From: Candidatus Omnitrophota bacterium
GTDB lineage: Bacteria > Omnitrophota > Gorgyraeia > Zapsychrales > Zapsychraceae
NCBI GenBank assembly: GCA_029261065.1
Contig: JAJDCB010000024.1
Span: 102,364-166,363 of the forward strand
Direction: 5' to 3'
DNA length: 64,000 nt
In this document: in pieces, positions 11,495 through 43,634 of the stretch
How positions within the stretch are numbered: the first letter of the stretch is position 1
Layout of the letters: each line of letters starts with the position of its first letter
The notes under the pieces: generated by a model
The model's input: only the letters and a program-made list of their open reading frames with translations
Told to the model about the DNA's origin: nothing
Database searches by the model: none
Position numbers and translations under genes: made by a program

Positions 11495-11905
11495 TCATAT
11501 ATTTTTAGTTTTAGCTTTCAATTTAGGAATATTATTGTAGATAGCTTCTTTCATTTTCATAAGTTCAATGGGTTTATTAATAAAATCATTCATCCCAACA
11601 TCAAAACATTTTTCTTTAACGCCTCTTTCTGTAGAAGCTGTTAGGGCAACAATTGGCAAATCTTTACTTAATTCTTTACGAATAAATCGGGTAGTCTCTA
11701 ATCCGCTCATTTCCGGCATAAGCAAATCCATAAAACAAATATCATAATTATTTTCTTTAATTTTTTTAATGGCCTCCATCCCACTATTGGCTAAATCACA
11801 TTGACATCCTAAAACATCGATGTAGGCACTGATAACTTCACAGTTTGCGATCACATCATCTACAGCAAGTATTTTAATTTTTTTTAGTGCTTTATCTTTT
11901 TCCAT
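11495..11905 (-). CDS. Single-domain response regulator (CheY-like receiver)
   Basis: ILAVDD ... CFMDLLMPEMSG ... VALTA ... INKPI: all canonical receiver positions present. Confidence 0.85.
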   Translation of the reverse strand: MEKDKALKKIKILAVDDVIANCEVISAYIDVLGCQCDLANSGMEAIKKIKENNYDICFMDLLMPEMSGLETTRFIRKELSKDLPIVALTASTERGVKEKCFDVGMNDFINKPIELMKMKEAIYNNIPKLKAKTKNI

Positions 11906-11925
11906 TAAGTCTCCTAAAACAGCAA

Positions 11926-13065
11926 TTAATGTTTAACGAGTGTTTGTTCAATCATTCCAACAAGCTTATTACTTTCTTTTAGTAAGGGCATATTAAAAAC
12001 ATCCACATAAGTCATCTCAAAACGGGTAATACCGCCTTTACCCATAATAGAGATATTTTCTATTGTCGGTAAGAAAAAATCCCAAACCATCTGGATCGTA
12101 TTAATTTGTTTTAAATGATTCTCGTCTGTTAGAGGCGTTAAATCTAGATCCTTACTTCCCTTTTGAAAACCAAACAAAGTATCAGAAAACAAATCTTTGG
12201 AAGCATTTAATGACTTTTGGTTTTTTTCAATATCAATTGAGAGGTAAACCAATAGAATTTCTTTAGAAATTTTCTGAGCCAGCATGCGTTGTTTTCCAGC
12301 TAAATTGAGTTTACTTGAATCTTTTGTGTTACCTTCCTCAGATAACGATTGCGAATCTTTTTCATACATTAAAACTGCTTTATTCATATTTTTAAGTAGG
12401 GTAACACTTTCGATACTTATACGAACTAATTCATCTTGGGTTAATTTATTGTTTTGAACAATTTTTAAATAAATGGGTTCAATCTTTTGAAAAAGTCCAT
12501 CAACAACCTCCAACTGTTGCTTAATCTCTTTACTATAACATTCTTCAAGGGCAAGGGAATCATCCCCCTCTTTTAAAGCCGCAAGCGTTTTCTTAAAGGC
12601 CTTTAAAGTTTTATCTAATTGATCACGATTAGATTGGATATCAATGTTTGATTGAACAAATAACGCTTCTTTAGCCATTTTCTGAGATAACATGCGTTGT
12701 CGACCAGCAAGATTAAGGGTGTGAGCAAATTGTTCTTTGGAAAACATTTTAATCTCCAGGACGGGCGCTGGAGGGGCAACAACAATGGGTGCAACAGCTT
12801 CTGGAATTGTCGCCAGCTCTTCAGCTTTAGGTTCAATAACCTCTGGGGATGGAGGTGTAACCGTTGCTTCAGATATTTCTTCTGGTACTATTTCAATTAC
12901 TGCTTCAGGTATTTCTTCAGGCGTTTTTTCAACAACAACCTTTAACTCCACAGCTTGTGGCTGAACTTCTTCTGCAGCAAGCTGTGATACAAAACAATAT
13001 TGAAAAAGTATTAAACAGATAATATATTTTAATAAATCTATATTTTTTAGTTCCTTAATTTTCAT
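11926..13065 (-). CDS. Periplasmic protein with a Glu/Pro-rich repeat region and two NarX/PilJ-type P-box four-helix-bundle sensor modules; no transmitter domain
   Basis: Signal peptide. EP-rich low-complexity segment. Two copies of the nitrate-sensor P-box: LNLAGRQRMLSQKMAKEALFV and LNLAGKQRMLAQKISKEILLV. Confidence 0.6.
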   Translation of the reverse strand: MKIKELKNIDLLKYIICLILFQYCFVSQLAAEEVQPQAVELKVVVEKTPEEIPEAVIEIVPEEISEATVTPPSPEVIEPKAEELATIPEAVAPIVVAPPAPVLEIKMFSKEQFAHTLNLAGRQRMLSQKMAKEALFVQSNIDIQSNRDQLDKTLKAFKKTLAALKEGDDSLALEECYSKEIKQQLEVVDGLFQKIEPIYLKIVQNNKLTQDELVRISIESVTLLKNMNKAVLMYEKDSQSLSEEGNTKDSSKLNLAGKQRMLAQKISKEILLVYLSIDIEKNQKSLNASKDLFSDTLFGFQKGSKDLDLTPLTDENHLKQINTIQMVWDFFLPTIENISIMGKGGITRFEMTYVDVFNMPLLKESNKLVGMIEQTLVKH

Positions 13066-15885: not shown

Positions 15886-16248
15886 TCAAGTTAACGCCTT
15901 AGAAATCGCCTCAAGAACTCTTGCATCATCAAATGGTTTAACAACATAATCAACAGCCCCTAAACGAATTGCTTTCATTAAGGATTCTCTTTGGTCAATG
16001 GCTGTAACCATTATAATTTTTGCAGCCTTGTCAAAGGCAAGAATTTCTTCTAAAGCTTCAATACCAGTTTTCTCAGGCATAACTATATCCATTGTAACTA
16101 AATCAGGCTTTAGATCCTTGTATAACTTCACAGCTTCTTCACCGTTGTTCGCCTCACCTACAACCTCATAACCCTGTTCTGTCACAATATTCTTTAACTT
16201 TAAACGAATGATTGGCGCATCATCAGTTAATAATAATTTTTTTGACAT
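15886..16248 (-). CDS. cheY: Chemotaxis response regulator CheY
   Basis: LLLTDD ... VTMDIVMPEKTG ... IIMVTA ... YVVKPF. 120 aa, single domain. Confidence 0.85.
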   Translation of the reverse strand: MSKKLLLTDDAPIIRLKLKNIVTEQGYEVVGEANNGEEAVKLYKDLKPDLVTMDIVMPEKTGIEALEEILAFDKAAKIIMVTAIDQRESLMKAIRLGAVDYVVKPFDDARVLEAISKALT

Positions 16249-16265
16249 AACTATGCTCCATTTTT

Positions 16266-16916
16266 CTACTTTTCTTGCGCATAAAATTTAGTGGTAGATA
16301 TCCCCAATAATCGAATTTGTTCTATAATTTTTGCCATTTCATTGACGGATAACTGAAGATTTTTTACAAGAGGCTTTAAATCCTCCCTCTCCTCATCAGA
16401 TTTGAATTGATTTAATTTAGCTTCCAAAACGTCCAAAGACCCCATTAAGACTGCTAAGGGCTGACTTATTTTATTCGTATGCTCACCTGCCACATCTAAA
16501 ATTGACTTTGCAGATGTCATTTCAATGGCAATAAGATGCGTATTGACACGAGCTATTAATTCTTCAGAAGATGTCCCCTTTTGAACAAAATCATTTGCTC
16601 CGGTTTTTAATAACATCACTCTCACATCATGTGATTCATTAGCCGTAATCATAATAACAACAATATGTTGTAACTCTGGGTTCGAACGTACCTTTTTTAA
16701 AAGTTTTTCACCATTTATATCAGGCATTTCATAGTCGCATAAAACGAGATCTACCTTATTATTTTCTAAATATTTTAACCCCTCACTACCAGAACCAGCA
16801 ACTGAAACCGTATACCCAGCCCCATCTAACATCGCTTTGTAAAGATCTCGTGAAGCCTGGGCATCATCAACAACTAATATTTTGTAATCTTTCTTTTTTC
16901 TTTTTAGAATGACCAT
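16266..16916 (-). CDS. Response regulator: N-terminal receiver plus about 90-aa C-terminal helical domain of unknown type (contains a His in ...AGEHTNKISQPLAVLMGSLDVLEAKL...)
   Basis: Receiver hallmarks ILVVDD, LVLCDYEMPDING, IMITA, FVQKG. The C-terminal region is helical/coiled-coil with no recognisable DNA-binding or enzymatic motif. Confidence 0.75.
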   Translation of the reverse strand: MVILKRKKKDYKILVVDDAQASRDLYKAMLDGAGYTVSVAGSGSEGLKYLENNKVDLVLCDYEMPDINGEKLLKKVRSNPELQHIVVIMITANESHDVRVMLLKTGANDFVQKGTSSEELIARVNTHLIAIEMTSAKSILDVAGEHTNKISQPLAVLMGSLDVLEAKLNQFKSDEEREDLKPLVKNLQLSVNEMAKIIEQIRLLGISTTKFYAQEK

Positions 16917-16943
16917 AGGTTCCTATTTTTGTTAGTAGCTCAA

Positions 16944-17351
16944 TTACACTAATTGAATATCTGATTCATTAAGCCTTGAATTTCTCAATTTTATTATTTC
17001 AATTATCTGTTTAAACATCTCCATATGAAAGGGTTTAAATATAAAATCTAGAGCCCCACTGCTTAATACTTCTTTAACTTGTGATTCTGTTGCATAACCA
17101 GCCATCATAACGGTAGTTAACAATGGATTACGCATGTGTATTGTTTTCATCAATGACATACCATTGATCATAGGAAGTCTCAGCTCTATTAAAACAACTT
17201 GATATTTCTTTTTACTCATTATTAGCATAGCTTCATCAGCATTAGAAGCAAAATCTGCACTAATATTATTAAGATTTAAATAATCAACAACGCACTTTGC
17301 AAATAATACATTGTTATCTACAACTAAAACATTGAAATCATTTGTTTTCAA
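16944..17351 (-). CDS. Atypical receiver-domain protein with Glu in place of the phospho-acceptor Asp
   Basis: Receiver fold positions VLVVDNN ... VVLIELRLPMINGMS ... TTVMMAGYAT ... IFKPF. The position equivalent to CheY Asp57 is Glu (LIELRLP). 4-bp overlap with the downstream gene. Confidence 0.7.
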   Translation of the reverse strand: MKTNDFNVLVVDNNVLFAKCVVDYLNLNNISADFASNADEAMLIMSKKKYQVVLIELRLPMINGMSLMKTIHMRNPLLTTVMMAGYATESQVKEVLSSGALDFIFKPFHMEMFKQIIEIIKLRNSRLNESDIQLV

Positions 17352-17947
17352 ATTCCAGCCCCAAAACCTAGAATGCGTTCACTCCCATCAATTGGCAGTA
17401 AATACATATGACAGTTTAATTCTGTTTCAACAATCTCAAATAAACTTTCTATTAATAAAATTTTATCTTCCTGCAAAGCCATATCCATTATTAACTCAGA
17501 GAAAAGTGTTCCAGAGAAATCACGTATAACAGAAGGTGGCTCAGGTAACATCTTTATCTGAAAGTCTGATGCAAAAACATTAGAGATGGCACTTGATAAT
17601 ATATTACCAATTTCCTGAACAGTACTTGAAACATATTCATCATATGCTTTTGTTGTACCAACCTTTTGTCCTATAAATAGATCTGTTAATATGAAAGCAT
17701 CTTCTAGTTGAACATAAAATAAAAATTTAAAGGGCGCATCGCCCGACAACAAAATAAATGATCCAATGGCCTCGAAGTCAGATTGATTTACGCTAGCCGT
17801 TATCTCTGTAATATCTACAAAATTGACATTCTTTAATTCAATTTTTGCAGTTGTGTTAAGCATCTTAGTCAATACTTCTGAGGATTTTTCAATGCTGTGT
17901 TCAGCGACTAGCTGTACCGCACGATTTACATTTTCATTTGATTCCAT
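17348..17947 (-). CDS. cheC: CheC/CheX-family CheY-P phosphatase (single recognisable active-site motif)
   Basis: S-x3-E-x2-N motif (STVQEIGN) followed by a Pro about 19-20 residues later. 199 aa. Position immediately upstream of cheD as in cheC-cheD operons. First-half motif degenerate. Confidence 0.55.
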   Translation of the reverse strand: MESNENVNRAVQLVAEHSIEKSSEVLTKMLNTTAKIELKNVNFVDITEITASVNQSDFEAIGSFILLSGDAPFKFLFYVQLEDAFILTDLFIGQKVGTTKAYDEYVSSTVQEIGNILSSAISNVFASDFQIKMLPEPPSVIRDFSGTLFSELIMDMALQEDKILLIESLFEIVETELNCHMYLLPIDGSERILGFGAGI

Positions 17948-17951
17948 TTAA

Positions 17952-18437
17952 TTAAAATTCCTCTGGTTCTTCACCAAAAACACGACAATGAACCTTACCA
18001 GTATCCAAAAAAAAATCAACTTGAACACCCTTATCTCCACCCGTTTTTGAGTTTATGATACGAATGTTGTGTTGTTTTAGAATAATTTTTGTAGCATCAA
18101 TGTTTTGTTCACCTATATTACTAGTTACCATCCTCAAAACTTTTCCTCCACCAAAAATCTTTGCCGTCAAAGAGTCTTTAGGGATTGTGTATTGTTTTTT
18201 CATTGATTCTAGTAAATCATGGATGCCTGTATCTGCAAACTTAGCACGTTTAAAAGTGGGTTTTTCATGATGACCGGATGAGTCCGGTAACATTATGTGC
18301 AGCATACCACCAATTTTTTTACTATCATCATATAAACATATGGCTATACACGAACCTAATGTTGTACGAATAACATATGGAGCTTCACCAATTTTATAGT
18401 CTCCTATACCAACGACTAACTTATTATTTTCTGTCAT
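17952..18437 (-). CDS. cheD: Chemoreceptor glutamine deamidase CheD
   Basis: VVGIGDYKIG ... LGSCIAICLYD ... GGMLHIMLPDS; catalytic Cys and His blocks present. 161 aa. Confidence 0.85.
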   Translation of the reverse strand: MTENNKLVVGIGDYKIGEAPYVIRTTLGSCIAICLYDDSKKIGGMLHIMLPDSSGHHEKPTFKRAKFADTGIHDLLESMKKQYTIPKDSLTAKIFGGGKVLRMVTSNIGEQNIDATKIILKQHNIRIINSKTGGDKGVQVDFFLDTGKVHCRVFGEEPEEF

Positions 18438-18490: not shown

Positions 18491-21286
18491 TTAGCGAACA
18501 TTAACTTTTTGCTGCGCTTCACGGATAATTGATGTTGCATCTAAAATAAGAGCTATACTTCCATCTCCTAAAATCGACGCACCACTTATGCCTTGGACAT
18601 CTGAAAAATGGTCCGGCAAAGATTTAATAACAATTTCGTCTTCTCCAATTAACCGATCAACTTCCACTCCAATTGTTTCATCCCCATCTGTAAGAACCAC
18701 GATTTTCCTTGAATTTTTATTTTCATTACTTTTGGTATTCATCCTTAAAATTGTTTCTAGATCAACTAGGCTTAAGGCATGACCTCTTAATTTTACTGTT
18801 GTATTTCCCTCTACTGAGAAAATGGAGTCGTCTTCAACTTTAATAATTTCAGAAACACATTCTAATGGCATAGCAAAAACTTGATTATTGATAACCACTA
18901 AAAGAGCTTGAATAATGGCTAAAGTAAGAGGAATCTTAATGCTAAAATTTGTTCCTCGACCAAGTTCAGTATCGATTTCTACCGTTCCATTTAATTCTTC
19001 AATAGTTCTACGCACAACATCCATACCAACACCACGACCTGAAATACCGGTAATTTGTGCAGCTGTACTAAAACCTGGCATAAATATGATTTGAAATTTT
19101 TCTTTCTCTGTCATTTGATCTAGCTTTTCTTGTGTCAGTATTCCTTTTTCTAAAGCTTTTTCAGATAGTTTGTTTGAGTCCAACCCTTTACCATCATCAT
19201 TAATTTGGATACATATATTATTTCCTTCATAAGATGCTGACAATTTAACTGTTCCCGCTGCTGGTTTATCTGTTAGAGCTCTATCTTCGGTTGTTTCTAT
19301 ACCGTGATCAACAGAATTTCTAATCATATGTGTTAAAGGGTCCCCCAATTCATCAACAATTTTTTTATCAAGCTCTGTTTCTTCACCATAAATCTCTAAA
19401 TTAATATCTTTTTTTAATTCTTTAGCAATATCGCGAACCAACCTTTTAAAACGAGTAAAAACGCCCTCAATAGGAACCATCCTCGTTGACATCACACCTG
19501 ATTGGATGTCGCTTGATAATTTACTCAAAGCGCTGGTCGCCTCATCGAGACTATAAAGTTTTGTGTTAACCTCTTTCATTGAAAGTTTGTTCGATAAATT
19601 AAACATCTCAGATTCCAGTAAGCCAAAAATTTTATTCAATCTATTTGCATTTGCATTCTCATCCCCGAGTGATTGGGATGAATTTTTTCTTAACGCCATC
19701 TTTAATTCAGCAATTTTTCCACCAACTTGACTTAAACGCGTAACATTTTCCTTTGATTGTGAAACTTCATGTTTAACCTCACTAACCAACTGTGCAAATT
19801 TTGCTCTCGTAATTACAAGTTCTCCTGCTAAATTCATAAGGCTATCTAGCCTCCTAGTATCGATACGCATTGTTGTCACTTCAACGCCAGCAGTTTTGGT
19901 TGTTGATGGTGTTTCTTTTTCTTTCATAGCAACCTCTTTTTTTACAGTTTTTGTTGGATTTGCCGTTTTTGTCGTAGGAGCAACTTCTTGAACTAAAGAG
20001 ACTTCTTCTTTTTCAATATTAATTACTTCAATTTGATCAATGCTAATGGCAATATCAATGTCCTTTAACAATTTTGAGGTTGTCAAAATGACACCAACGT
20101 ATACGGCCGTTTCTACATTATCATCGATTAATTCGACATCAGGTTTACAATGAATAATTTCTCCTAGCATGGCTAATTTTTCATTACAAACATTTGCTTT
20201 AATGTTTTTTGTTACACAATTTGCATCAACAGCATAACTGACTCGAAACACATTTAATCCATCTTTTGTTGCATTCTCTTTTAAAGCTGTCAAGTTTTCA
20301 GGCAAATCACTAAATAATTGTGAAACATCAACAGAGTCACCTGTCGTTTCATTAAGAGATTTAGTTGATTTTTCAAGTTTTAATTTATCAATACATTTTT
20401 GAAGCTTTTGAATGACATCAGTATTATTCAAAAGGGCATAGTTTGTTTCGCGAATTTGAGCTGCGGAGTTTTTTATCCAATCAATCCCTATAAATAATGT
20501 AGAAACTATATCCGATTCAGGAACTAGCTTTTCTTCCCTGTATTTTGACAACAAATCTTCCATTTTATGCGCAACAAGTTCAATATCGTTTCTTTTAATT
20601 ATGCCAGATGAGCCTTTGATGGTATGTGAAATTCGAAATAATTCATTAACAGCTTCAATAGGATCAACTTTATTTTCTTCAAGTTGAATCATAACTTCAT
20701 TAAAACGATCAATATTTTGAAATGTATCATCTAAATAAGCTCCCACATATTTTAAAAAATCCTCGCTAGGGGCAGCTACTTCAGTCGCGGCTTCTACAGG
20801 CGGCGTTATTTTTTCTTGAGAAACACCAGCTTCTTCACTTGTCGTTTTAGCAGAATCTGTTTTCCCTGATGTTCCATCTAAAACGGCTTTTATTTCAGTA
20901 ACAACATCAGTGGTGTCCCCTTCATCCGTACCATCCGATTTTAAACGGTCCAATAAAGAACTCAATGTATCAAAAGCGTTGAATAAAACATCTATAATAT
21001 CAATTGTAAGCACAAGTTCACTATTTCGAACACGATCAAGAATGGTTTCCATCTCATGCGTTAATCCTGAAATATTTGAAAAATCAAGAAAACTTGCGGT
21101 GCCCTTAATCGTATGTGCCGCCCGAAACATTGTGTTTATCATATCTACAGAGACTTCTTCATCATTCTTAAGAATTTCTTCAGCTTTAAGAAGATTATCA
21201 TTTAACTCTTGTAGATATTGTTCACTTTCTGAGAGGAATTCAGCAATAATTTCGCTTCTATCATCGTCTATCTCTGAGTCACTCAT
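18491..21286 (-). CDS. cheA: Chemotaxis histidine kinase CheA with two N-terminal Hpt (P1) domains
   Basis: Two H-x-x-K-G phospho-His motifs (AAHTIKGTASFL; ISHTIKGSSGII) separated by a Ser/Thr/Glu-rich linker. HATPase_c blocks (HGIE..., GRGVGMDVVR) and a C-terminal CheW-like P5 domain. 931 aa. Confidence 0.95.
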   Translation of the reverse strand: MSDSEIDDDRSEIIAEFLSESEQYLQELNDNLLKAEEILKNDEEVSVDMINTMFRAAHTIKGTASFLDFSNISGLTHEMETILDRVRNSELVLTIDIIDVLFNAFDTLSSLLDRLKSDGTDEGDTTDVVTEIKAVLDGTSGKTDSAKTTSEEAGVSQEKITPPVEAATEVAAPSEDFLKYVGAYLDDTFQNIDRFNEVMIQLEENKVDPIEAVNELFRISHTIKGSSGIIKRNDIELVAHKMEDLLSKYREEKLVPESDIVSTLFIGIDWIKNSAAQIRETNYALLNNTDVIQKLQKCIDKLKLEKSTKSLNETTGDSVDVSQLFSDLPENLTALKENATKDGLNVFRVSYAVDANCVTKNIKANVCNEKLAMLGEIIHCKPDVELIDDNVETAVYVGVILTTSKLLKDIDIAISIDQIEVINIEKEEVSLVQEVAPTTKTANPTKTVKKEVAMKEKETPSTTKTAGVEVTTMRIDTRRLDSLMNLAGELVITRAKFAQLVSEVKHEVSQSKENVTRLSQVGGKIAELKMALRKNSSQSLGDENANANRLNKIFGLLESEMFNLSNKLSMKEVNTKLYSLDEATSALSKLSSDIQSGVMSTRMVPIEGVFTRFKRLVRDIAKELKKDINLEIYGEETELDKKIVDELGDPLTHMIRNSVDHGIETTEDRALTDKPAAGTVKLSASYEGNNICIQINDDGKGLDSNKLSEKALEKGILTQEKLDQMTEKEKFQIIFMPGFSTAAQITGISGRGVGMDVVRRTIEELNGTVEIDTELGRGTNFSIKIPLTLAIIQALLVVINNQVFAMPLECVSEIIKVEDDSIFSVEGNTTVKLRGHALSLVDLETILRMNTKSNENKNSRKIVVLTDGDETIGVEVDRLIGEDEIVIKSLPDHFSDVQGISGASILGDGSIALILDATSIIREAQQKVNVR

Positions 21287-21307
21287 ATTTTAGTCCTTCC
21301 TTAACCT

Positions 21308-22357
21308 TTAGTTTAGGTTACAGATTTTTGAGATGGCTTTACTAAAATTTTGAATATCTAATTCTAAATCAACAGCACCAGCGTTGTTAGCAGCTTTTGG
21401 CATTCCGTAAACAACACAGCTTTCTTCATCTTGCCCAAGAACATAGGCACCTTTTTCATGTAATTTGACCAGCCCTTTTGTTCCATCATCACCCATACCT
21501 GTTAATATCAATCCTAATATACTCCCTTTAAAATTTTCACTTACAGAGTCAAATAGCACATTACACGATGGACAAAAACCAGAAACTTTTTCTTCTCCAG
21601 CTAAAGATAAATAAGGACCCGTGGAACCAGATTTAAGTCTCATTTGAACTCCTCCACGCGCTAGATAACACCAACCTTTTTTTATTTTGTCTCCCTCTTC
21701 TGCTTCTTTGACATTAATTTTTGATAATTTGTCTAATCTTTCAGCAAAACTTTTTGTAAATTTTTCAGGCATATGTTGAACCCAAACGATCGGAGGACAT
21801 TCTTCTGCTAAATGTGGTAAAAATGCAGTTGATGCCTGAACCCCTCCTGTTGACGATCCTAGTGCAATTAGATCAATTTTTCTCTTAGGTAGTACGCTTA
21901 AATCAAATATCTTCTTTTTCGTTATGTTGCCATCTGGTGCTGTTTTATTAATAAGCTTAAACTTATTACGTAAAATAATACCCTCTATTTTACGAACAAG
22001 AGTATGAATTATCTCATCAATGCCTAAGGCATCCGATGCTGGTTTGACAAGATAATCAACAGCCCCATATTCTAAGGCTTTAATAGTTACTCTAGAGCCT
22101 TCATTCGTCAAAGAACTAAACATAAAAACAGGTAGTGGACAATCCTTCATGATACATCTCAAGGCTTCAAGACCATTCATGACAGGCATTTCGCAATCTA
22201 ATATTAACAAATCAGGCTTTTTTAATTTAACTAAATCAATAGCTTCTTTGCCATTTTTGGCCTGACCAACAACCGAAACTTTTCCTGTAGCTTCTAATTT
22301 TTCTTTTAAAACACTTCTTAAAAAAGCAGAATCATCTGCTAAAAGTACATTAGTCAT
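21308..22357 (-). CDS. cheB: Chemotaxis methylesterase/deamidase CheB (receiver plus methylesterase)
   Basis: N-terminal REC (VLLADDSAFLR ... LLILDCEMPVMNG). C-terminal catalytic triad blocks GSSTGG, VQHMP, GMGDDG. Confidence 0.95.
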   Translation of the reverse strand: MTNVLLADDSAFLRSVLKEKLEATGKVSVVGQAKNGKEAIDLVKLKKPDLLILDCEMPVMNGLEALRCIMKDCPLPVFMFSSLTNEGSRVTIKALEYGAVDYLVKPASDALGIDEIIHTLVRKIEGIILRNKFKLINKTAPDGNITKKKIFDLSVLPKRKIDLIALGSSTGGVQASTAFLPHLAEECPPIVWVQHMPEKFTKSFAERLDKLSKINVKEAEEGDKIKKGWCYLARGGVQMRLKSGSTGPYLSLAGEEKVSGFCPSCNVLFDSVSENFKGSILGLILTGMGDDGTKGLVKLHEKGAYVLGQDEESCVVYGMPKAANNAGAVDLELDIQNFSKAISKICNLN

Positions 22358-22363
22358 ACAATA

Positions 22364-23179
22364 TTAAGTTGATTTCTGAAACATACTCGAACGAATGAGT
22401 GTAAAATTTGAATTTATATCATTGATAGTTTCCGACAAACTTATAAACAAATAACCGTTCGATGCAACATTTTTTTCAACATTTGAAACAATTTCTTGTT
22501 TTGCTGGTTGATCGAAATAGATAAGAACATTTCTCATAAATATAATATCAAATTCTTTTTCAGAAAAGGCCTTTTTTAAATTGTGATTTGAAAATTGAAC
22601 CTTATTTTTTATAGAGTCAATAACTTTATATTCTGGTTTCGAGCCTTTAGATGCTTCTTCAATAGTAAAATATTTTGACACAAGAGAGTCCGGTGTTTGT
22701 CTTAAGCTTCTTTCATCATAGACGGCATTTCTAGCAAAGCTAACAACAGACGTATTGATATCTGAGGCAAAAATAGAATAGGTTATGCGTGAATTTTTTT
22801 TTGTAAATTCTTTTAAAAGAATAGAAAGGGAATAGGGCTCTTCGCCTGTCGAACAGGCAGCACACCAAATTTTAATTTTTGACTTTTTTTCAGCAAGAGT
22901 AGGAAGAACGACATCATACAAATAATTCATTTGAACAGAATGTCTAAAAAAATATGTTTCATTTGTCGTTATAGCATTTATAAATTCTTCAGTTTCTTCA
23001 CTATTAGGTTTCTTAACAACATCAATATACTCAGCAAAATCTTTTAAACTTAGTTCATTAACACGTTTGCCTATACGAGCACTCACCAAATGCTTTTTTG
23101 AGTCTCGTAACATGACCCCTGTTTTTTGATACATCAAATCTCGAATTTTTTTAAAATCAATATCTGAAATATCTTCCAT
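22364..23179 (-). CDS. cheR: Chemotaxis protein methyltransferase CheR
   Basis: CheR N-terminal helical domain plus SAM-MTase core (IWCAACSTGEEPYSL). 271 aa. Confidence 0.9.
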   Translation of the reverse strand: MEDISDIDFKKIRDLMYQKTGVMLRDSKKHLVSARIGKRVNELSLKDFAEYIDVVKKPNSEETEEFINAITTNETYFFRHSVQMNYLYDVVLPTLAEKKSKIKIWCAACSTGEEPYSLSILLKEFTKKNSRITYSIFASDINTSVVSFARNAVYDERSLRQTPDSLVSKYFTIEEASKGSKPEYKVIDSIKNKVQFSNHNLKKAFSEKEFDIIFMRNVLIYFDQPAKQEIVSNVEKNVASNGYLFISLSETINDINSNFTLIRSSMFQKST

Positions 23180-23184
23180 TGGTT

Positions 23185-23697
23185 TTATTTAGTATTACCT
23201 ACTCCTATTTCTCTAATGACATCTTCTTGTAACTTGCCTAAATCAATAATTGTCACCATTCTCCCTTCAAGTTCGCCAATACCAACAACGCAATCTTTAT
23301 CAATATTTGAGGCAACAGATGGGGCTGGGTCTATTTTTGATTTTGACAATTTAATGTTTTCTAATATTTCATCAACAATAAAACTAAAAGAAACACTACC
23401 GACCTCAGCGACAACAATTTTTGTTTTTTCACTAAAGGCAACATCCGCCAAATTAAACTTAATTCTTAAATCAAAAACACTGATTACGCTACCTCGAATA
23501 TTTATAACGCCTAAGACAAACTTAGGCATTTGAGGAATGTGCGTAATCATTTGAACACGATTGACTTCTTGAATATCAATAATCCTAACGGCATATTCTT
23601 CGTTTGCAAGTTTAAAACAAACGAATTGCTCCACATCATCAGAATCTTCCACATTTTGAATGTCTAACATATTGTCAACTGTTAAGTCTTCTACCAT
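23185..23697 (-). CDS. cheW: Chemotaxis coupling protein CheW
   Basis: 170-aa CheW-like domain (FVCFKLANEEYAVRIIDIQEV...VINIRGSVISVFDLR). Confidence 0.9.
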   Translation of the reverse strand: MVEDLTVDNMLDIQNVEDSDDVEQFVCFKLANEEYAVRIIDIQEVNRVQMITHIPQMPKFVLGVINIRGSVISVFDLRIKFNLADVAFSEKTKIVVAEVGSVSFSFIVDEILENIKLSKSKIDPAPSVASNIDKDCVVGIGELEGRMVTIIDLGKLQEDVIREIGVGNTK

Positions 23698-23721
23698 TGT
23701 TAATCCTTATCTAGAAGGTTT

Positions 23722-25980
23722 TTAACCAAAACTTAATTTTTCTTCATCATTATTATCTTTGGCTCTTGCTTTAGTTTGTGTGTTTCCTTTTTTAGCAGTA
23801 ATTGTTACAGGTTTTGAAGGCAGCTCTGTTGTATCGTTAGATTTTGTTTGAGTGGACTCTCTAGATTCTCCACCATCTTCCGATACACGAAACCGACCAA
23901 CAAGGTCAATAAGTGTTGCCGATTGTGCTGCCATTTGTTCTGAAGAGGATGCCAATGACTCAGAAGCGGTAGCATTCCCCTCGGTAATGGCTGTATTTTC
24001 TTCCATGGTAGCTGCTTGTTCAGATGTTGCATTAGAAATACTTTTTAACTGCTCTGCAACACTAGTAATATCCACAAGCATTTCTTTTAAACTATCACCA
24101 GCTTCTTTGGATAGATTAACACCTTGTTCAACTTGGTTAGAACTCTCAACGATAAGATTCTTAATATCTTTAGCAGACTCAGCACTTCTTTCTGCTAACT
24201 TTCTTACCTCATCAGCAACCACAGCAAAGCCCTTACCATGCTCACCAGCCCGAGCAGCTTCAATGGCCGCATTTAAAGCAAGTAAATTTGTTTGATCTGC
24301 AATGTCTGTTATTATTTCTACGGCTTCCGTTATCTGCTTTGAGCTTTTTTCTATTGAGCCTATAGCTTCAATAGTATTATCCATACCTTCAGCCGTTTTT
24401 TCCGCTTTCTTGGACACACTTTGAGCCGAATCATCAGCAGATGATGCACTGGTTGAGTTAGATTGGACTGAACTTGATAATTCTTCAAAACTTGCAGATT
24501 GCTGTTGCGCACCATCTGAAATTTTACTAGCACTTGTAGCAATCTCGTCAGTTCCTAAATTTAATTGTTGAGATGAAGATTTCACTTGTATTATGATATC
24601 TTCAATTTTAGTTACAAATTTGTTAAAATTATTAGCCAAGTCTCCTAATTCATCTTTATTCGCTATCTGTATTCTTTTTGTTAAATCCCCTTCGCCTTCT
24701 GCAATATCCTGCATATTTTTATTTATATAATTAATTGGTTGCGTAATCGATTTACTAACAAAAATACCTGTTACAGCAACAATACCAGCAATGATAAGTG
24801 CGACAAGAAGAACTTGCCAGGTTAAACTTTTTATAGGCGCCATAATTTCACTTAATTCAACCTCGGAAATTAAAAACCAATCTAGCCCTTCAATATCTAT
24901 TGTTGAATATGAAGATACAACTTTTTTTCCTTTATAATTTACATCTTCTATTGTACCGGTTTCTCCAGCCACAGCATTTTTACTAGACTCATTTTCAACC
25001 TTAATTTTTTGAATGGTTGATTCTTCTGAAAATCTGGAATCCGATTTAAAAAATTTATCAGAACCAATTATGAAACTTTCACCTGTTTCACCCATACCAG
25101 AGTGCTCTTGAACTACTTCATTAATCCCATCAACAGGCATTTGAAAAACTAAAGCTCCTAGTAGCGTGTCTCCATCATATATTGGTGAAGCTGTAAAAGA
25201 GGCGGGTGCATTGTAAGAGGGCTCATAAAAATCAAAATCGACAATATTAACAAAATCTTTTTGTCCACTTAACAACGCCTCTTTCGCCGCTCTTGCAAAA
25301 TTTGTATTGCTATATGGTCCATTAAACAATGAAGTTGCATAATCAACTTCCTTAAAAACAGAATATACAATGGCCCCATTTACAGGTTCAACCAAAAAGA
25401 TATCGTAATAACCAAATTCTTGCAAATAAGAACGAATTATAGCGTGATATTGTTCATGCAATTTAGAATATATTGTACTATCATTGGCTTTTTCTAAGGC
25501 TTCTTTGGCACCAATAGGATGTGAATTATTTGCAATGTAGTGATATTGCAAGACTTTTGCTGCAACTGTTTTTGGCATCCAACGATCAACAGCACTGGTG
25601 TCTGAACCATCTGTGTTAGCCTGTTGATATGTATATCGGTCTCTTAGTTTCCCATCGATCGTAGATTTATTTTCCTTATAAAAGTCACCTTCTGAATCTT
25701 CAATTTTTGAATAAGCATACGAAAATTGTTTCATTGCCTGAACTATCATACCATTCTGTGAAAAAGTTTTTACCTGGCCCTTATATGAAGCCATATTATC
25801 TTCCAAAGATTTTTTCTTAATGGCACTAACAGCTTCTAATTTTTTTTGTAAAACGTCCGAAGTCATTTTTGAAGCCGATTTAATACTTAAAATTGAAACA
25901 ATTAGCAAAGGAATCAAACCCAATGCCATAAAAAAGAAAATCAATTTTGTTTTAATTTTGAATTTTTTAAAAATGTTCAT
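23722..25980 (-). CDS. mcp: Methyl-accepting chemotaxis protein with about 350-aa periplasmic double-Cache-like sensor, HAMP and MCP signalling domains; Ser/Thr-rich C-terminal tail
   Basis: TM1 [21 protein letters not shown] and TM2 [19 protein letters not shown]. Highly conserved hairpin tip region ...[35 protein letters not shown].... No C-terminal NWETF-like pentapeptide. Confidence 0.95.
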
Positions 25981-26379
25981 TTAAGAACCTCCAATTGTGT
26001 TTGTAGATTTAATATATTTTGTAAGCGTCCATTGATCAGTATCATCAATGCCGTCAAAGGAAACAGCAACGTCATATAAATTGCCTGGTTGCTCCTTTTG
26101 GCAACGTTTAACACAAGCAATTAATTCTAAAGGCTTTTCATAAGAAAGCTCCTCGGGTTTATAAAAAGTAGAGCTATATTTTTTAAAATGTGGTATATAA
26201 ATTTTTAAATTCAAAATTTCTTTTTTAGAATAGCTTTTTTTTGAATAAAACAAAAGACCACCAACACTAATATTTTTTGTCTTAGAATTTTCTTGAGTGC
26301 TAAAATTATTTCGCCTTTGACAATCTAAGGAAAAATGTTTATTCAATCGGCTGTATTTTCTTTTCTCACTTATAGACAT
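25981..26379 (-). CDS. Single-domain PilZ (c-di-GMP-binding) protein embedded in the che operon
   Basis: Canonical PilZ motifs RxxxR (RKYSR) and D/NxSxGG (NISVGG). 132 aa. 10-nt overlap with cheV upstream and abuts the MCP gene downstream. Confidence 0.75.
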   Translation of the reverse strand: MSISEKRKYSRLNKHFSLDCQRRNNFSTQENSKTKNISVGGLLFYSKKSYSKKEILNLKIYIPHFKKYSSTFYKPEELSYEKPLELIACVKRCQKEQPGNLYDVAVSFDGIDDTDQWTLTKYIKSTNTIGGS

Positions 26380-27296
26380 AATTTATCAACAGTTTCAACA
26401 AGCAAATCGATTTCTGGTTTTGTTAATTGCCCATTAGCACCAACTTTTCTACACTTATCGGCCAACTCATCCGTTATCATAGAAGAAAAGACAACGCACG
26501 GTAAATCCTTTAAGTCTTTCTCTGCGCGAACCTTACTAATTAAATGCAATCCATCCATCTGCGGCATTTCTATATCTGTAATAAGTAAATTGCAAAAATC
26601 ACTTACATCTTTAAAACCTTCTGATTTTACCTCGTCTTGAAAGGCATTCCATGCCTTTTCACCATCTGTAAAAGCCTTAACTTTGTATCCAGCTGTTGAA
26701 ACATAATCAACCAATAATTGACGTATATATGCAGAATCTTCTGCTATAAAAATTTGTTTAGTTGATCTATCGACTTGATTTGTTGATTTTGGCTTAGCAT
26801 CGGCAACGCCTTCTAATCCAGCTTCGGGATTGATGATAGAAGCAATTTTTTCAAAATCTAGCAGAAATAGTATTCGATCTTCTATTTTGATAACTCCAAC
26901 AGCATATCCCATTTTAGAATTAACTAATCCCGACGGGGCACCAACATCCTTCCAAGAAATACGATGAATGCGGGTTACTTCATTAACCCAAAAACCTGCT
27001 TGAAGTTTATTGAATTCAGTAACAATAATACGACTGGCTTTTGGGTCGTAATCAACATCAATTTTTAATTGTTTAGCAAGTGTAACAACAGGCGTAATTC
27101 TACCACGTAAATTAACGACGCCAGCTACGGATTCATGAGAATCAGGAACAGGAACAATACCAATATTTGCCCGAATAATCTCTCTTACCTTGGCAACATT
27201 AATTCCATAATATTCATTTCCGATTTTAAACTCAATAATTTCTAACTCATTCGTTCCTGCCTCTAACAGAATTTGCTGCTTATTATTTTCGCTCAT
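26370..27296 (-). CDS. cheV: Chemotaxis protein CheV (CheW-like domain plus C-terminal receiver)
   Basis: N-terminal CheW-like (LEIIEFKIGNEYYGINVAKVREI). C-terminal REC (IFIAEDSAYIRQ ... LLITDIEMPQMDG ... VVFSS ... LTKPE). Confidence 0.9.
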   Translation of the reverse strand: MSENNKQQILLEAGTNELEIIEFKIGNEYYGINVAKVREIIRANIGIVPVPDSHESVAGVVNLRGRITPVVTLAKQLKIDVDYDPKASRIIVTEFNKLQAGFWVNEVTRIHRISWKDVGAPSGLVNSKMGYAVGVIKIEDRILFLLDFEKIASIINPEAGLEGVADAKPKSTNQVDRSTKQIFIAEDSAYIRQLLVDYVSTAGYKVKAFTDGEKAWNAFQDEVKSEGFKDVSDFCNLLITDIEMPQMDGLHLISKVRAEKDLKDLPCVVFSSMITDELADKCRKVGANGQLTKPEIDLLVETVDKLCL

Positions 27297-27417: not shown

Positions 27418-27771
27418 CTATAACGAATCTAAAATTTTTTTTGCTATCTCAACTGTTATTGGTTTTTTAATTAAAGAGATTGCGCCATTATCCTGTAATA
27501 TTTTCTCTCTCTCGTCGGTAGCTTCTACAGTAGTTACGATTAATTTTTGGTTTGGAAATTTAGCTTTAATATTTTTTAAAATTGTCAATCCATCTTCTGC
27601 GCCTAAATTATCATCAAGGATAATCAAATCAAAATTTTCTTGTTTATCTAATAAAGCATAAAGCCCGTCAGGATCTAATGTTGTTTTGACATCAGCACCA
27701 CACTCTAAAAAAAGATTTTTATGCTTGTTTAGTGCGAACTCGCCATTATCCAATAAACAAATTTTTGCCAA
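27418..27771 (-). CDS. Single-domain receiver protein
   Basis: ICLLDNGEF ... LIILDDNLGAEDG ... LIVTTVEA ... LIKKPI. Confidence 0.75.
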   Translation of the reverse strand: MAKICLLDNGEFALNKHKNLFLECGADVKTTLDPDGLYALLDKQENFDLIILDDNLGAEDGLTILKNIKAKFPNQKLIVTTVEATDEREKILQDNGAISLIKKPITVEIAKKILDSL

Positions 27772-27786
27772 TTTGATATCCTTTTT

Positions 27787-28143
27787 TTAAGCTATCTTTG
27801 ATTTAAAATCCAAATATGCACTTTTTAACTGTGGGCAGAGTTTACTTATTTCTGCAATATCACTTTCCGCTTTTGAAAGTTCATCAATACTAGCAGCAAT
27901 TTTTGAAACATGATCTATTCTTAAATTTGCATACACACCCTTTATTCTGTGCGCTATCGCTTGTATATCTTCATGATTTTGTTGTTCAATTCCTTTTTCT
28001 AAAGCTATTAAGTCAGTATCACATTGCGTAAATGAAGAAATTAATATACTCTTATAAACATCTACAGGAATACTTAACTCACCACTTTTTTCTTTAAGAA
28101 AACTATCTAGATCAAAGTCATTGTTTTCATTTTCATTTGACAT
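27787..28143 (-). CDS. Stand-alone histidine phosphotransfer (Hpt) protein
   Basis: Hpt H-x-x-K-G motif (IAHRIKGVYANL) in a 118-aa all-helical protein. Confidence 0.7.
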   Translation of the reverse strand: MSNENENNDFDLDSFLKEKSGELSIPVDVYKSILISSFTQCDTDLIALEKGIEQQNHEDIQAIAHRIKGVYANLRIDHVSKIAASIDELSKAESDIAEISKLCPQLKSAYLDFKSKIA

Positions 28144-30458: not shown

Positions 30459-31040
30459 TTAGCTCTTAATTTTGTCTATCGGTAACAAAACAAAATCAAC
30501 AACTAAAACCTTCTTTTTCTTTATGAAGAAACTCATTTCTGTTAACTTTTCTTCATTATAATTAAATTCCACACCCTCAGGCACATCATTTCTATATTTT
30601 AAAGGGGCAGAAATAATTAACTCACCATAACCTTCATTTTTGATATCATTTTTAGTTTTTCCAGAAATAACATTATGAATTTCACCGCAATTATCCATAA
30701 CAAACTCTTCATCTTCATCATCAAACCCAGTTTGCCCCAAGGCTTTTAATAGCTCCCGAGCATAAACCTCTTCTACATAAAAAACCATAGTTCCACAGGT
30801 ATCTTTACTGTCAAATTTTGATTTATCAGCATAAAAATTAATAACTGAAATAAAACAGGGTCCATTAAATTTCTGAAGACCAAAAACTCTCATGCGGCTT
30901 TCATATTCAATGATATCTTTTTCCTCAAATTCAGGATCCTGGGAGAAAATAGCGCTAGCCATTGTTTCGCAGGTTTCTTCAACGGCTTTCATAACAATTT
31001 TAATTATTGGGTCATTTTGAATAACATCTTCTTCACTCAT
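30459..31040 (-). CDS. cheX: CheX-type CheY-P phosphatase
   Basis: Exact CheC/CheX/FliY consensus D-x3-E-x2-N-x22-P present once: DNCGEIHN followed by 22 residues then P. 193 aa. Confidence 0.7.
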   Translation of the reverse strand: MSEEDVIQNDPIIKIVMKAVEETCETMASAIFSQDPEFEEKDIIEYESRMRVFGLQKFNGPCFISVINFYADKSKFDSKDTCGTMVFYVEEVYARELLKALGQTGFDDEDEEFVMDNCGEIHNVISGKTKNDIKNEGYGELIISAPLKYRNDVPEGVEFNYNEEKLTEMSFFIKKKKVLVVDFVLLPIDKIKS

Positions 31041-43242: not shown

Positions 43243-43634
43243 ACGCGTTTAAGACTTCTTCGTTTGGTGGTTGCATTCTTTCTCGTTGTAGCTGTATAAT
43301 TTTTGGCCGTTCTTTTTCGTTTGTAATCGGGGAAATTAATTGCGATGAGATTATGTGAGGATCGAGTTTTTTCTTCTATACGAATTATTTTGCCCATACC
43401 TTTAAAAATTTGTAAAACTCCAGACATTACAACAATTACTTCTAACGTCTCACCCGCCTTATAGTCAATTTCGGAATAAAACGACAAACCACTTAAACTC
43501 ATATCATGTGTAGTTGAAAGATGCCAAGATTTGTCAATTTTTTTTCGTCGAGATTTTGACAGACGATATTGGATACTTAAGACACGTTTGGCCCTAATTG
43601 TTGCTCTTCTTTCTTCGTTTGATGATTTAACCAT
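43239..43634 (-). CDS. Single-domain PilZ (c-di-GMP-binding) protein with basic C-terminal tail
   Basis: RxxxR (RATIR) and DxSxxG (DMSLSG) motifs. Its stop overlaps the convergent pntB stop. Confidence 0.7.
   Translation of the reverse strand: MVKSSNEERRATIRAKRVLSIQYRLSKSRRKKIDKSWHLSTTHDMSLSGLSFYSEIDYKAGETLEVIVVMSGVLQIFKGMGKIIRIEEKTRSSHNLIAINFPDYKRKRTAKNYTATTRKNATTKRRSLKRV

What the first reader, a model, noticed from the sequence alone, without database searches (positions are those of the whole stretch)
18491..21286. CheA with duplicated Hpt (P1) domains and a non-canonical region in place of P2
Two full H-x-x-K-G phosphorylation motifs (HTIKGTASFL and HTIKGSSGII) lie about 170 residues apart, separated by an S/T/E-rich linker. 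Between the second P1 and the dimerisation/kinase core is an about 150-aa segment that I cannot match to a CheY-binding P2 domain. Multi-P1 CheAs occur in systems that phosphorylate several distinct receivers. That fits the many receivers in this locus.
Basis: partly seen in the sequence, partly recalled or inferred. Interest (0 to 1): 0.5.

Follow-up and report, generated by a model that had tools for sequence, protein, structure and literature searches.

The report
CheA kinase with two phosphotransfer domains

Summary
The ORF 18491-21286 (minus strand, 931 aa) is a complete CheA with the layout P1a - disordered linker - P1b - P2 - long P3 - P4 - P5.

Confirmed:
- There are two Hpt (P1) domains. 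Each is a five-helix bundle with its own H-T-I-K-G site (H58 and H221).
- The His/Lys/His/Glu network is kept in both domains across 52 aligned homologues.
- His and Lys+3 are kept in both domains of all 82 dual-Hpt proteins examined.

Refuted: the segment before the kinase core is not "non-canonical". Residues 345-426 are a standard Thermotoga/Bacillus-type P2, on three lines of evidence:
- Pfam PF07194 scores above its curated cut-off.
- A family profile finds T. maritima CheA P2 (1U0S_A).
- An AlphaFold model (pLDDT 93.7) has 1U0S_A as its only significant fold match.

The layout is the rule in a family that is mostly Candidatus Omnitrophota, with members in Planctomycetota, Aureabacteria and an Oligoflexia MAG. 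The family shares the operon (CheW/CheV)-PilZ-(MCP)-CheW-CheR-CheB-CheA-CheD-CheC-CheY.

The two P1s are old paralogues (29% identity), not a recent duplication. The number of nearby receiver domains ranges from 0 to 10, so the link to "many receivers" is weak.

Multi-Hpt CheAs are well known, and this exact architecture appears in a published survey table. Verdict: new member of a known kind, modest interest. What each P1 does is untested.

The parts
18491..21286 (-). cheA gene, 931 aa plus stop codon. Layout: P1a-P1b-P2-P3(long)-P4-P5.
   Evidence: ORF listing. Pfam finds Hpt x2, P2, H-kinase_dim, HATPase_c and CheW. The NCBIfam CheA models are the best hits but score below their equivalog cut-offs. 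Full-length AlphaFold model has mean pLDDT 82.
20879..21274 (-). P1a, the first Hpt domain (aa 5-136). A five-helix bundle with the phospho-acceptor His58 (codon 21113-21115).
   Evidence: Pfam Hpt scores 59.6 bits when scanned alone. Helices 5-40, 47-66, 70-87, 95-118 and 126-136 have pLDDT about 95. H58, K61, G62 and H77 are invariant and E80 is kept in >=90% of 52 homologues. Coordinates checked.
20765..20878 (-). Linker A (aa 137-174), rich in T/A/S/E and predicted disordered.
   Evidence: Composition. pLDDT <50 over 141-170. In the family its length varies from 16 to 90 aa and identity is only 18%.
20351..20764 (-). P1b, the second Hpt domain (aa 175-312). A five-helix bundle with the phospho-acceptor His221 (codon 20624-20626).
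   Evidence: Pfam Hpt scores 41.7 bits when scanned alone. Helices 175-203, 209-229, 233-251, 258-279 and 289-312. H221, K224, H240 and E243 are invariant in 52 homologues.
20009..20254 (-). P2, the response-regulator docking domain (aa 345-426), of the Thermotoga/Bacillus type.
   Evidence: Pfam PF07194 scores 30-33 bits against a cut-off of 23. The family profile hits 1U0S_A at E = 1.7e-5. AlphaFold model has pLDDT 93.7 with a beta-alpha-beta-beta-alpha-beta order. Foldseek top hit is 1U0S_A with TM 0.67/0.76. The family P2 HMM also hits the P2 of classical Firmicute CheAs at up to 46 bits.
19472..19873 (-). P3, an extended dimerisation hairpin (aa 472-605). Two helices of about 60 residues, roughly twice the canonical length.
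   Evidence: Pfam H-kinase_dim matches in two split stretches. Query 472-501 and 573-600 align to the two P3 helices of T. maritima CheA, with about 70 extra residues in between. There is a match to 6Y1Y_A over 473-605. Helices 477-538 and 544-602.
18917..19471 (-). P4, the ATP-binding kinase domain (aa 606-790).
   Evidence: Pfam HATPase_c scores 63 bits. It aligns at 324 bits to T. maritima CheA P3-P5. The N, G1, F and G2 box residues are invariant in the family: H653, N657, D697-D698-G699, G701, F735, G750-G754.
18494..18916 (-). P5, the CheW-like receptor-coupling domain (aa 791-931).
   Evidence: Pfam CheW scores 91.8 bits.
15886..18437 (-). Downstream operon partners: CheD (17952-18437), CheC (17348-17947), REC 135 aa (16944-17351), REC plus a DHp-like segment 216 aa (16266-16916), and a CheY-like REC 120 aa (15886-16248).
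   Evidence: Pfam and NCBIfam. The order CheA-CheD-CheC-REC is conserved in L082-L088.
21308..27296 (-). Upstream operon partners: CheB (21308-22357), CheR (22364-23179), CheW (23185-23697), MCP (23722-25980), PilZ (25981-26379) and CheV (26370-27296).
   Evidence: Pfam. The same order is found in related loci.

Best explanation
The gene encodes a working CheA histidine kinase with one more phosphotransfer domain than the textbook protein: P1a, a flexible linker, P1b, P2, an extra-long P3, P4 and P5.

Shown:
- Both P1 domains are complete five-helix Hpt bundles that keep the phospho-accepting His and its Lys/His/Glu partners.
- The domain after P1b is a canonical P2 docking domain.
- The kinase core is intact.
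- The layout is conserved as a unit across a family that is mostly Candidatus Omnitrophota.

Inferred mechanism:
- P4 phosphorylates both His58 and His221. Each P1 sits on a flexible tether long enough to reach the active site.
- P1b, tethered next to P2, serves the receivers that dock on P2. These are the CheY encoded after CheC, and probably CheB.
- P1a, the more conserved of the two, acts as a second phosphodonor that does not depend on P2. Its targets would be receivers that do not use P2, such as CheV or the extra stand-alone receivers.
- One kinase would therefore feed two output branches.

The split of labour between the two P1s is a hypothesis. The existence and integrity of the two P1s and of P2 is not.
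For: - **Architecture.** Pfam finds two Hpt matches, P2, a split H-kinase_dim, HATPase_c and CheW. The full-length AlphaFold model shows two five-helix bundles, a beta-alpha-beta-beta-alpha-beta P2, and three disordered linkers at 141-170, 308-318 and 430-471.
- **Integrity of both sites.** H58/K61/G62/H77 and H221/K224/H240/E243 are invariant in 52 homologues, and E80 is kept in >=90%. His and Lys+3 are present in both domains of all 82 dual-Hpt proteins among the top 120 hits.
- **Folded domains on flexible tethers.** Domain lengths are constant (127-129, 121-128 and 82-87 aa). Linker lengths vary from 16 to 90 aa with 14-18% identity.
- **P2 is canonical**.
- **Non-redundancy.**
  - 73 of the 74 best hits have two Hpt domains. 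The one exception is truncated at its N-terminus.
  - Each P1 keeps its own signature across phyla: T63/S226, S65/G228, T76/A239, A104/G267 and E12/K179.
  - P1a and P1b separate in 76 of 100 bootstrap trees.
- **Precedent for Hpt domains of one CheA behaving differently.** In P. aeruginosa ChpA only some of the Xpt domains are phosphorylated (PMC10782961, PMC12632253).
Against: - There is no experimental or structural evidence here for which receiver each P1 serves.
- The residues that differ consistently between P1a and P1b are few.
- The dual-P1 layout is kept even where few receivers are encoded nearby. The Oligoflexia locus L085 has only CheB and one CheY, and the Thermogutta locus L089 has none within reach. 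Many receivers are therefore not required. Those contigs are short, however, and other receivers may lie elsewhere in those genomes.
- The locus is rich in CheC and CheX phosphatases. This neither supports nor excludes a two-branch model.
- Tree support for the origin of each P1 is weak. The exact P1a clade appears in 41 of 100 bootstraps.
Confidence: 0.55

Rival explanations
1. The two P1 domains are redundant. Both donate to the same receivers, and the second copy simply raises the local concentration of substrate and donor, increasing flux or phosphoryl storage.
For: Both domains have the full catalytic set. Single-P1 CheAs score almost equally against the P1a and P1b profiles, within about 10 bits. 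The layout persists where only CheB and one CheY are seen nearby.
Against: Truly redundant copies are usually lost or decay in some lineages. In the Desulfovibrionaceae CheAs, for example, the second Hpt-like domain lacks the His motif. Here none of the 82 proteins has lost either His. In addition, each copy keeps its own conserved residues next to the phospho-His.
Confidence: 0.25
2. One P1 acts mainly as a phosphate sink or relay. It takes phosphoryl groups back from CheY~P by reverse transfer rather than receiving them from P4, standing in for the C-terminal receiver domain that most multi-Hpt CheAs carry.
For: More than 90% of multi-Hpt CheAs carry a C-terminal REC that is thought to act as a sink (PMC10782961, PMC11181946). 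This family has none.
Against: The operon already encodes dedicated phosphatases, CheC and several CheX, which makes a sink less necessary. Nothing in the sequence tells a reverse acceptor from a forward acceptor.
Confidence: 0.1
3. One of the Hpt-like domains is a degenerate or purely regulatory module that is not phosphorylated. Examples are the extra Hpt-like domains of R. sphaeroides CheA3 and the non-His Xpt domains of ChpA.
For: Such degenerate domains exist in other CheAs (PMC10782961). Seven Desulfovibrionaceae CheAs fetched here, plus one Proteobacteria MAG, have a second Hpt-like domain without the His motif.
Against: In both domains the His, Lys+3 and second His are invariant, and the Glu is invariant (P1b) or kept in at least 90% (P1a), across 52 homologues. 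His and Lys+3 are kept in both domains of all 82 dual-Hpt proteins. Both domains are confidently modelled five-helix bundles.
Confidence: 0.05
4. One reading: the segment between P1b and P3 is a novel domain that replaces P2.
For: Only weak evidence. P2 is the least conserved domain in the family (29% mean pairwise identity), and precomputed Pfam annotation misses it in many homologues.
Against: Pfam P2 scores above its cut-off. The family profile hits 1U0S_A. The fold search returns 1U0S_A as its only significant match. The family P2 HMM finds the P2 of classical Firmicute CheAs.
Confidence: 0.02

Closest known systems
Five-domain CheA of Thermotoga maritima / Bacillus-type systems (P1-P2-P3-P4-P5)
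   Same: The order of domains from P1b onward is the same. P2 is of the T. maritima type (1U0S_A by sequence profile and by fold). P3-P5 align at 324 bits to T. maritima CheA. The operon carries CheC, CheD, CheV and CheX, as these systems do.
   Different: There is an extra, fully intact P1 at the N-terminus. P3 helices are about twice as long. The adjacent MCP aligns best to E. coli Tsr, with one heptad fewer on each arm. That is not the long receptor I recall for Thermotoga/Bacillus systems, which is my own knowledge and was not tested here.
Multi-Hpt CheAs of the Tfp and ACF classes (P. aeruginosa ChpA, Synechocystis PixL)
   Same: More than one Hpt domain lies N-terminal to the kinase core. 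PixL has exactly two, and their roles are still unknown (PMC11181946). A pilus ATPase gene sits next to the cluster here.
   Different: Those proteins carry a C-terminal receiver domain and lack P2. In the survey, more than 90% of multi-Hpt CheAs have a REC and 93% are Tfp or ACF class (PMC10782961). Some ChpA Xpt domains lack the His. This protein has P2, has no REC, and both of its His sites are intact.
[quoted passage not shown] 2023
   Same: The architecture is identical, including the long dimerisation domain. Planctomycete proteins of 971-1032 aa belong to the same family in my searches: P0068-P0071 and P0079, which have dual Hpt plus P2.
   Different: Sequence identity is only about 33%. 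I did not retrieve the Blastopirellula sequences themselves. Their ACF class label may not carry over to the window's protein.
Rhodobacter sphaeroides CheA3
   Same: It also has additional Hpt-like domains and a P2-like domain after the first P1 (PMC10782961).
   Different: In CheA3 the extra Hpt domains lack the His, the kinase domain is defective, and the protein works only together with CheA4. Here everything is intact in a single polypeptide.
Treponema denticola CheA with extended P3 (PDB 6Y1Y)
   Same: The dimerisation hairpin is about twice the usual length. Query 473-605 matches 6Y1Y_A over residues 3-129 (PMC10782961).
   Different: The match is weak (E = 1e-4). The survey reports extended P3 in many lineages, so this does not define a relationship.

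Membership tests
CheA histidine kinase | An Hpt (P1) domain with a phospho-accepting His in an H-x-x-K-G context | tested here: met
   Two such domains are present, each above the Pfam cut-off. The His and Lys are invariant.
CheA histidine kinase | A CheA-type dimerisation domain followed by HATPase_c with N/G1/F/G2 boxes | tested here: met
   Pfam H-kinase_dim scores 55-61 bits and HATPase_c 63 bits. The box residues are invariant in the family. It aligns at 324 bits to T. maritima CheA.
CheA histidine kinase | A C-terminal CheW-like (P5) domain | tested here: met
   Pfam CheW scores 91.8 bits over residues 793-924.
CheA histidine kinase | ATP-dependent autophosphorylation and transfer to CheY/CheB | not testable with these tools
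   This needs biochemistry.
P2 / CheY-binding domain (Pfam PF07194, clan with CheY-binding) | A sequence match above the curated threshold | tested here: met
   30.0 bits in the whole protein and 33.4 bits for the segment, against a cut-off of 23.
P2 / CheY-binding domain (Pfam PF07194, clan with CheY-binding) | The fold of the solved P2 domain | tested here: met
   The AlphaFold model has pLDDT 93.7. Foldseek against the PDB gives 1U0S_A as top hit at E = 1.7e-4 and TM 0.67/0.76, the only hit with E <= 1e-3.
P2 / CheY-binding domain (Pfam PF07194, clan with CheY-binding) | Binds CheY and/or CheB | not testable with these tools
   No binding assay or complex prediction was available.
Tfp/ACF-type multi-Hpt CheA (ChpA/PixL-like) | Two or more Hpt domains | tested here: met
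   Two Hpt domains.
Tfp/ACF-type multi-Hpt CheA (ChpA/PixL-like) | A C-terminal receiver (REC) domain | tested here: not met
   The protein has no Response_reg match and ends with the CheW domain. This is also the precomputed Pfam pattern of the full-length homologues.
Tfp/ACF-type multi-Hpt CheA (ChpA/PixL-like) | Absence of P2 | tested here: not met
   P2 is present.
Chemosensory class assignment (F1-F17, Tfp, ACF of Wuichet and Zhulin / MiST) | Best match to the class-specific CheA/CheW/CheB/CheR profile HMMs | not tested
   Those HMMs were not available. Indirect hints conflict:
- The accessory genes CheC/D/V/X resemble F1/F2 systems.
- The MCP looks about 34H.
- The only catalogued proteins with this architecture are labelled ACF.

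The most novel reading that the evidence does not exclude
The two P1 domains are dedicated, non-interchangeable phosphodonors, so a single REC-less, P2-bearing CheA splits its signal into two branches. P1b-P2 would drive the docked CheY/CheB pair. P1a would drive a second set of receivers: CheV, the REC-DHp protein, or the PilB-type pilus ATPase with a fused receiver at 35901-38645. The same receptor array would then control type IV pilus activity directly, in a lineage with no cultured model.
Probability: 0.2. Interest if true: 0.55.

Novelty: new member of a known kind. Interest (0 to 1): 0.3.

Why it matters
Why CheAs carry several phosphotransfer domains is an open question. The well-studied cases are hard to dissect: ChpA has at least nine such domains plus a fused receiver, and PixL has two plus a fused receiver.

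This family offers about the simplest natural case. It has exactly two intact P1 domains, a normal P2 and no fused receiver, and it is conserved across several phyla. That makes it a clean system for asking whether separate P1 domains give one kinase separate outputs.

For the genome scan, the practical result is a correction. The "missing P2" is an ordinary P2 that is simply too divergent to recognise by eye.

Tried and rejected
- **Genome collection scan.** The scan with the family alignment chose patterns from the universally conserved kinase core (SGRGVGMD, IPLTLAIIQ). It was still useful as a contrast set: 64 of 88 CheA-like ORFs from all loci held at that point had a single Hpt, and in seven Desulfovibrionaceae loci plus one Proteobacteria MAG the second Hpt-like domain lacks the His motif.\n- **Naming the organism.** The cluster look-up for ten family members returned no names or accessions. 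The Omnitrophota attribution rests on 9 of the 14 named homologues.\n- **Origin of the two P1s.**\n - I tested whether P1b descends from P2-bearing CheAs and P1a from P2-less CheAs.\n - HMM score differences go that way: -5.3 versus +5.0 bits, Mann-Whitney p = 4e-4.\n - A first NJ tree agreed.\n - Bootstrap support is only 42 of 100.\n - P1a is closer than P1b to every kind of single P1, which points to a rate difference. I therefore do not claim separate origins.\n - The distance matrix contained NaNs, so its tree counts are discarded. One search replaces them.\n- **Survey supplement.** Text search for the architecture string failed because commas cannot be searched. Reading parts 36-37 directly worked. 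The stored table is cut off soon after the start of class F1, so I cannot say how often the architecture occurs in classes F1-F17 or Tfp.\n- **Literature.** Searches for Omnitrophota chemotaxis and for PilB-receiver fusions found nothing relevant.\n- **Artefact readings.** I considered a frameshift or fusion artefact and rejected it. The ORF is uninterrupted, and the layout is shared by 73 of the 74 best homologues. The antisense ORF 20910-21293 (+) lies inside cheA and was ignored.
Full report
**Observation.** The coordinates hold one uninterrupted ORF, 18491..21286 on the minus strand, encoding 931 aa (re-translated).
HTIKGTASFL carries His58 and HTIKGSSGII carries His221, 163 residues apart.
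- The stretch between the two domains (aa 137-174) has 6 T, 6 A, 5 S and 5 E among its 38 residues.
- The two surrounding segments are homologous to each other: 29% identity over 124 aa, E = 3e-16.

**Anatomy.** Pfam finds two Hpt matches, a P2 domain, an H-kinase_dim match split in two, HATPase_c and CheW.
- Scanned separately, the two N-terminal segments score 59.6 and 41.7 bits for Hpt (cut-off 24.6). The third segment scores 33.4 bits for P2 (cut-off 23).
- A full-length AlphaFold model built on 52 homologues has mean pLDDT 82. It shows:
  - a five-helix bundle at 5-136;
  - disorder at 141-170;
  - a second five-helix bundle at 175-312;
  - a beta-alpha-beta-beta-alpha-beta domain at 345-426;
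  - disorder at 430-471;
  - two helices of about 60 residues (477-538 and 544-602);
  - then the P4 and P5 folds.
- His58 and His221 each sit in the second helix of their bundle.
- The long P3 arises because query 472-501 and 573-600 align to the two P3 helices of T. maritima CheA, with about 70 extra residues in between. The whole segment also matches the extended P3 of PDB 6Y1Y. Berry et al. describe 6Y1Y as the Treponema denticola dimerisation domain (PMC10782961).

**The supposed non-P2 region.** Three independent tests show that residues 345-426 are a normal P2.
- Pfam PF07194 scores above its curated threshold.
- A profile of this segment from 38 family members finds the T. maritima CheA P2 chain 1U0S_A over its whole length, E = 1.7e-5.
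- An AlphaFold model of residues 338-436 has pLDDT 93.7. Searched against the PDB, it returns 1U0S_A as its top hit and its only hit with E <= 1e-3, with TM-scores 0.67/0.76.
- In addition, an HMM of the family's segment detects the P2 of classical single-P1 Firmicute CheAs at up to 46 bits.

The segment is hard to recognise by eye because P2 is the least conserved domain: 29% mean pairwise identity in the family, against 67% for P4. Berry et al. make the same general point about P2 (PMC10782961).

**Are both P1 domains functional?** The sequence evidence says yes.
- In an alignment of 52 full-length homologues, H58, K61, G62 and H77 are invariant in P1a and E80 is kept in >=90%. H221, K224, H240 and E243 are invariant in P1b.
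- From my own knowledge of E. coli and T. maritima P1, these positions correspond to the phospho-His and its Lys/His/Glu hydrogen-bond network (E. coli H48, K51, H67, E70). The alignment of P1a to E. coli CheA is consistent with this.
- All 82 dual-Hpt proteins among the 120 best database hits keep His and Lys+3 in both domains. This includes the planctomycete members, whose second site reads HRIKGSAA.
- Domain lengths are nearly fixed (127-129, 121-128 and 82-87 aa). The three linkers vary from 16 to 90 aa and are 14-18% identical. This is the signature of folded domains on flexible tethers.

**Family and context.** The protein itself is already in public data but unnamed (P0001; no names).
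- 73 of the 74 best hits have two Hpt domains. The exception is truncated at its N-terminus. 72 of the 74 also match the family P2 HMM.
- Named members are mostly Candidatus Omnitrophota (9 of 14). There are single examples from Aureabacteria, Thermodesulfobacteriota, an Oligoflexia MAG and Thermogutta.
- I searched 1.84 billion cluster representatives with residues 1-430. This gave 112 proteins at E <= 1e-30 out of 4,071 at 1e-10. At least 35 of the best 150 match colinearly across P1a-P1b-P2. The others are ChpA-like giants with many Hpt repeats. The family is real but small.
- Seven related loci share the operon (CheW/CheV)-PilZ-(MCP)-CheW-CheR-CheB-CheA-CheD-CheC-REC. The Thermogutta locus keeps only CheA and CheD.
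- In the window the cluster runs from 15886 to 38645. Besides the operon above, it includes three CheX-domain genes, a stand-alone Hpt, a PAS histidine kinase and a PilB-type ATPase with a fused receiver. No flagellar gene lies in the window.
- Receiver domains within about 10 kb of the cheA gene number 8 here. In the other loci they number 9, 5, 5, 2, 5, 4, 10 and 0. The dual-P1 layout therefore does not track the number of receivers.

**History of the two P1 domains.** They are old paralogues.
- Their mean distance from each other (1.97) exceeds the distance of either from the P1 of single-P1 CheAs (1.37-1.88). They separate in 76 of 100 bootstrap NJ trees.
- By contrast, the 749-aa Sericytochromatia-type CheAs have two Hpt domains that cluster with each other in 99 of 100 trees. 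That is a separate, recent duplication.
- P1a is more conserved than P1b: 50% versus 37% mean pairwise identity.
- A few positions are fixed differently in the two copies: T63/S226, S65/G228, T76/A239, A104/G267 and E12/K179.
- A hint that P1b is related to the P1 of P2-bearing CheAs, and P1a to that of P2-less CheAs, is not robust (42 of 100). I do not rely on it.

**Comparison with what is known.** Berry et al. (2023, PMC10782961) surveyed CheA architectures.
- 18% of CheAs have two or more Hpt domains. About 93% of those belong to the Tfp and ACF classes, and more than 90% also carry a C-terminal receiver. Class F4 always has three Hpt domains.
- Extended P3 domains occur in many lineages.
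[quoted passage not shown] Both entries are in Blastopirellula and labelled ACF. The stored table is cut off after the first F1 rows, so other classes could not be checked.
- Synechocystis PixL has two N-terminal Hpt domains whose roles are still unexplored (PMC11181946).
- In ChpA only some of the Xpt domains are phosphorylated (PMC12632253).
- The window's protein is thus a member of the known category "multi-Hpt CheA", in an uncommon sub-architecture: P2 present, no receiver, both sites intact. That sub-architecture has been tabulated, but the survey's text does not discuss it, and my literature searches found no study of it.

**Mechanism.**
- Shown: an intact kinase core, two intact P1 domains on flexible tethers, and a canonical P2 next to P1b.
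- Inferred: P4 phosphorylates both His residues.
- Inferred: P1b, next to P2, serves P2-docked receivers. These are the CheY after CheC, and probably CheB.
- Inferred: P1a is a second donor for receivers that do not use P2.
- The strict retention of both sites, and the copy-specific conserved residues, argue against simple redundancy or decay. They do not show which receiver each site serves.
- My confidence by step is about 0.95 for the architecture, about 0.8 that both sites are used, and about 0.35 for division of labour between them.
- The rival readings are redundancy for flux, a sink or relay role for one P1, and a degenerate regulatory P1. The last is disfavoured by the invariant catalytic residues.

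**Verdict.**
- The duplicated P1 is confirmed and conserved.
- The "non-canonical region in place of P2" is refuted.
- The link to many receivers is weak.
- This is a new member of a known kind and of modest interest. Its main value is as a minimal natural system for asking why some CheAs carry more than one P1.

Noticed in passing
window 35901-38645 (-): A 914-aa protein combines an MshEN domain, a PilB-type pilus assembly ATPase (NCBIfam TIGR02538, 615 bits, just under its cut-off of 676) and a C-terminal receiver domain. An 896-aa protein with the same three Pfam domains (cut by the locus end) sits upstream of the che cluster in L082. A literature search found no description of PilB-receiver fusions. 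It could be a direct phosphorylation target of the chemosensory system.
   Followed up: partly
window 25981-26379 (-); also 43239-43634 (-): A small PilZ-domain gene lies inside the che operon, between CheV and the MCP. A PilZ gene sits inside the che cluster in seven related loci, upstream of CheR in L082-L087 and downstream of the CheY-like REC in L088. It therefore looks like a conserved, possibly c-di-GMP-responsive, member of the system. A second PilZ gene lies elsewhere in the window.
   Followed up: partly
window 16266-16916 (-): A 216-aa protein has a receiver domain followed by a DHp-like segment with an H-box-like 'EHTNKISQPL'. The HisKA match is 21.9 bits, below the cut-off, and there is no ATPase domain. 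L082 has a 214-aa REC protein at the equivalent position, for which only Response_reg is on record. L083 (REC-HATPase_c, 398 aa) and L088 (REC-HisKA-HATPase_c, 395 aa) have larger REC-kinase proteins in the same downstream cluster.
   Followed up: partly
window 28341-30014 (-) and 30459-31040 (-): A 557-aa protein has two CheX phosphatase domains, and a second CheX gene follows, with a stand-alone receiver between them. The cluster is unusually rich in CheY-P phosphatases: CheC plus three CheX domains.
   Followed up: no
window 27418-28143 (-): A stand-alone 118-aa Hpt protein lies next to a 117-aa receiver. Stand-alone Hpt genes also occur in L082, L087 and L088, in L082 and L088 together with PAS histidine kinases. 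This suggests a separate phosphorelay embedded in the chemosensory cluster.
   Followed up: no
window 23722-25980 (-): The MCP signalling domain aligns to E. coli Tsr with two symmetric 7-residue gaps, one on each arm of the hairpin. It is therefore about one heptad shorter per arm than Tsr. It matches T. maritima receptors less well.
   Followed up: partly
window 19472-19873 (-): The CheA dimerisation domain is about twice the canonical length, with two helices of about 60 residues. This resembles the extended P3 of PDB 6Y1Y. The median P3 length in the family is 135 aa.
   Followed up: yes
window 53387-63967 (-): A giant ORF of 3526 aa lies near the end of the window. It was not analysed.
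   Followed up: no
window 11495-13065 (-): A 379-aa protein has two PilJ N-terminal sensor domains but no MCP signalling domain match. It is followed by a 136-aa receiver that resembles hybrid-kinase receivers.
   Followed up: no
L016, L022, L029, L032, L034, L036, L037: Desulfovibrionaceae CheAs of about 940-1060 aa have a second Hpt-like domain that lacks the H-x-x-K-G motif, and they have no P2. This is a different, degenerate kind of double-Hpt CheA.
   Followed up: partly
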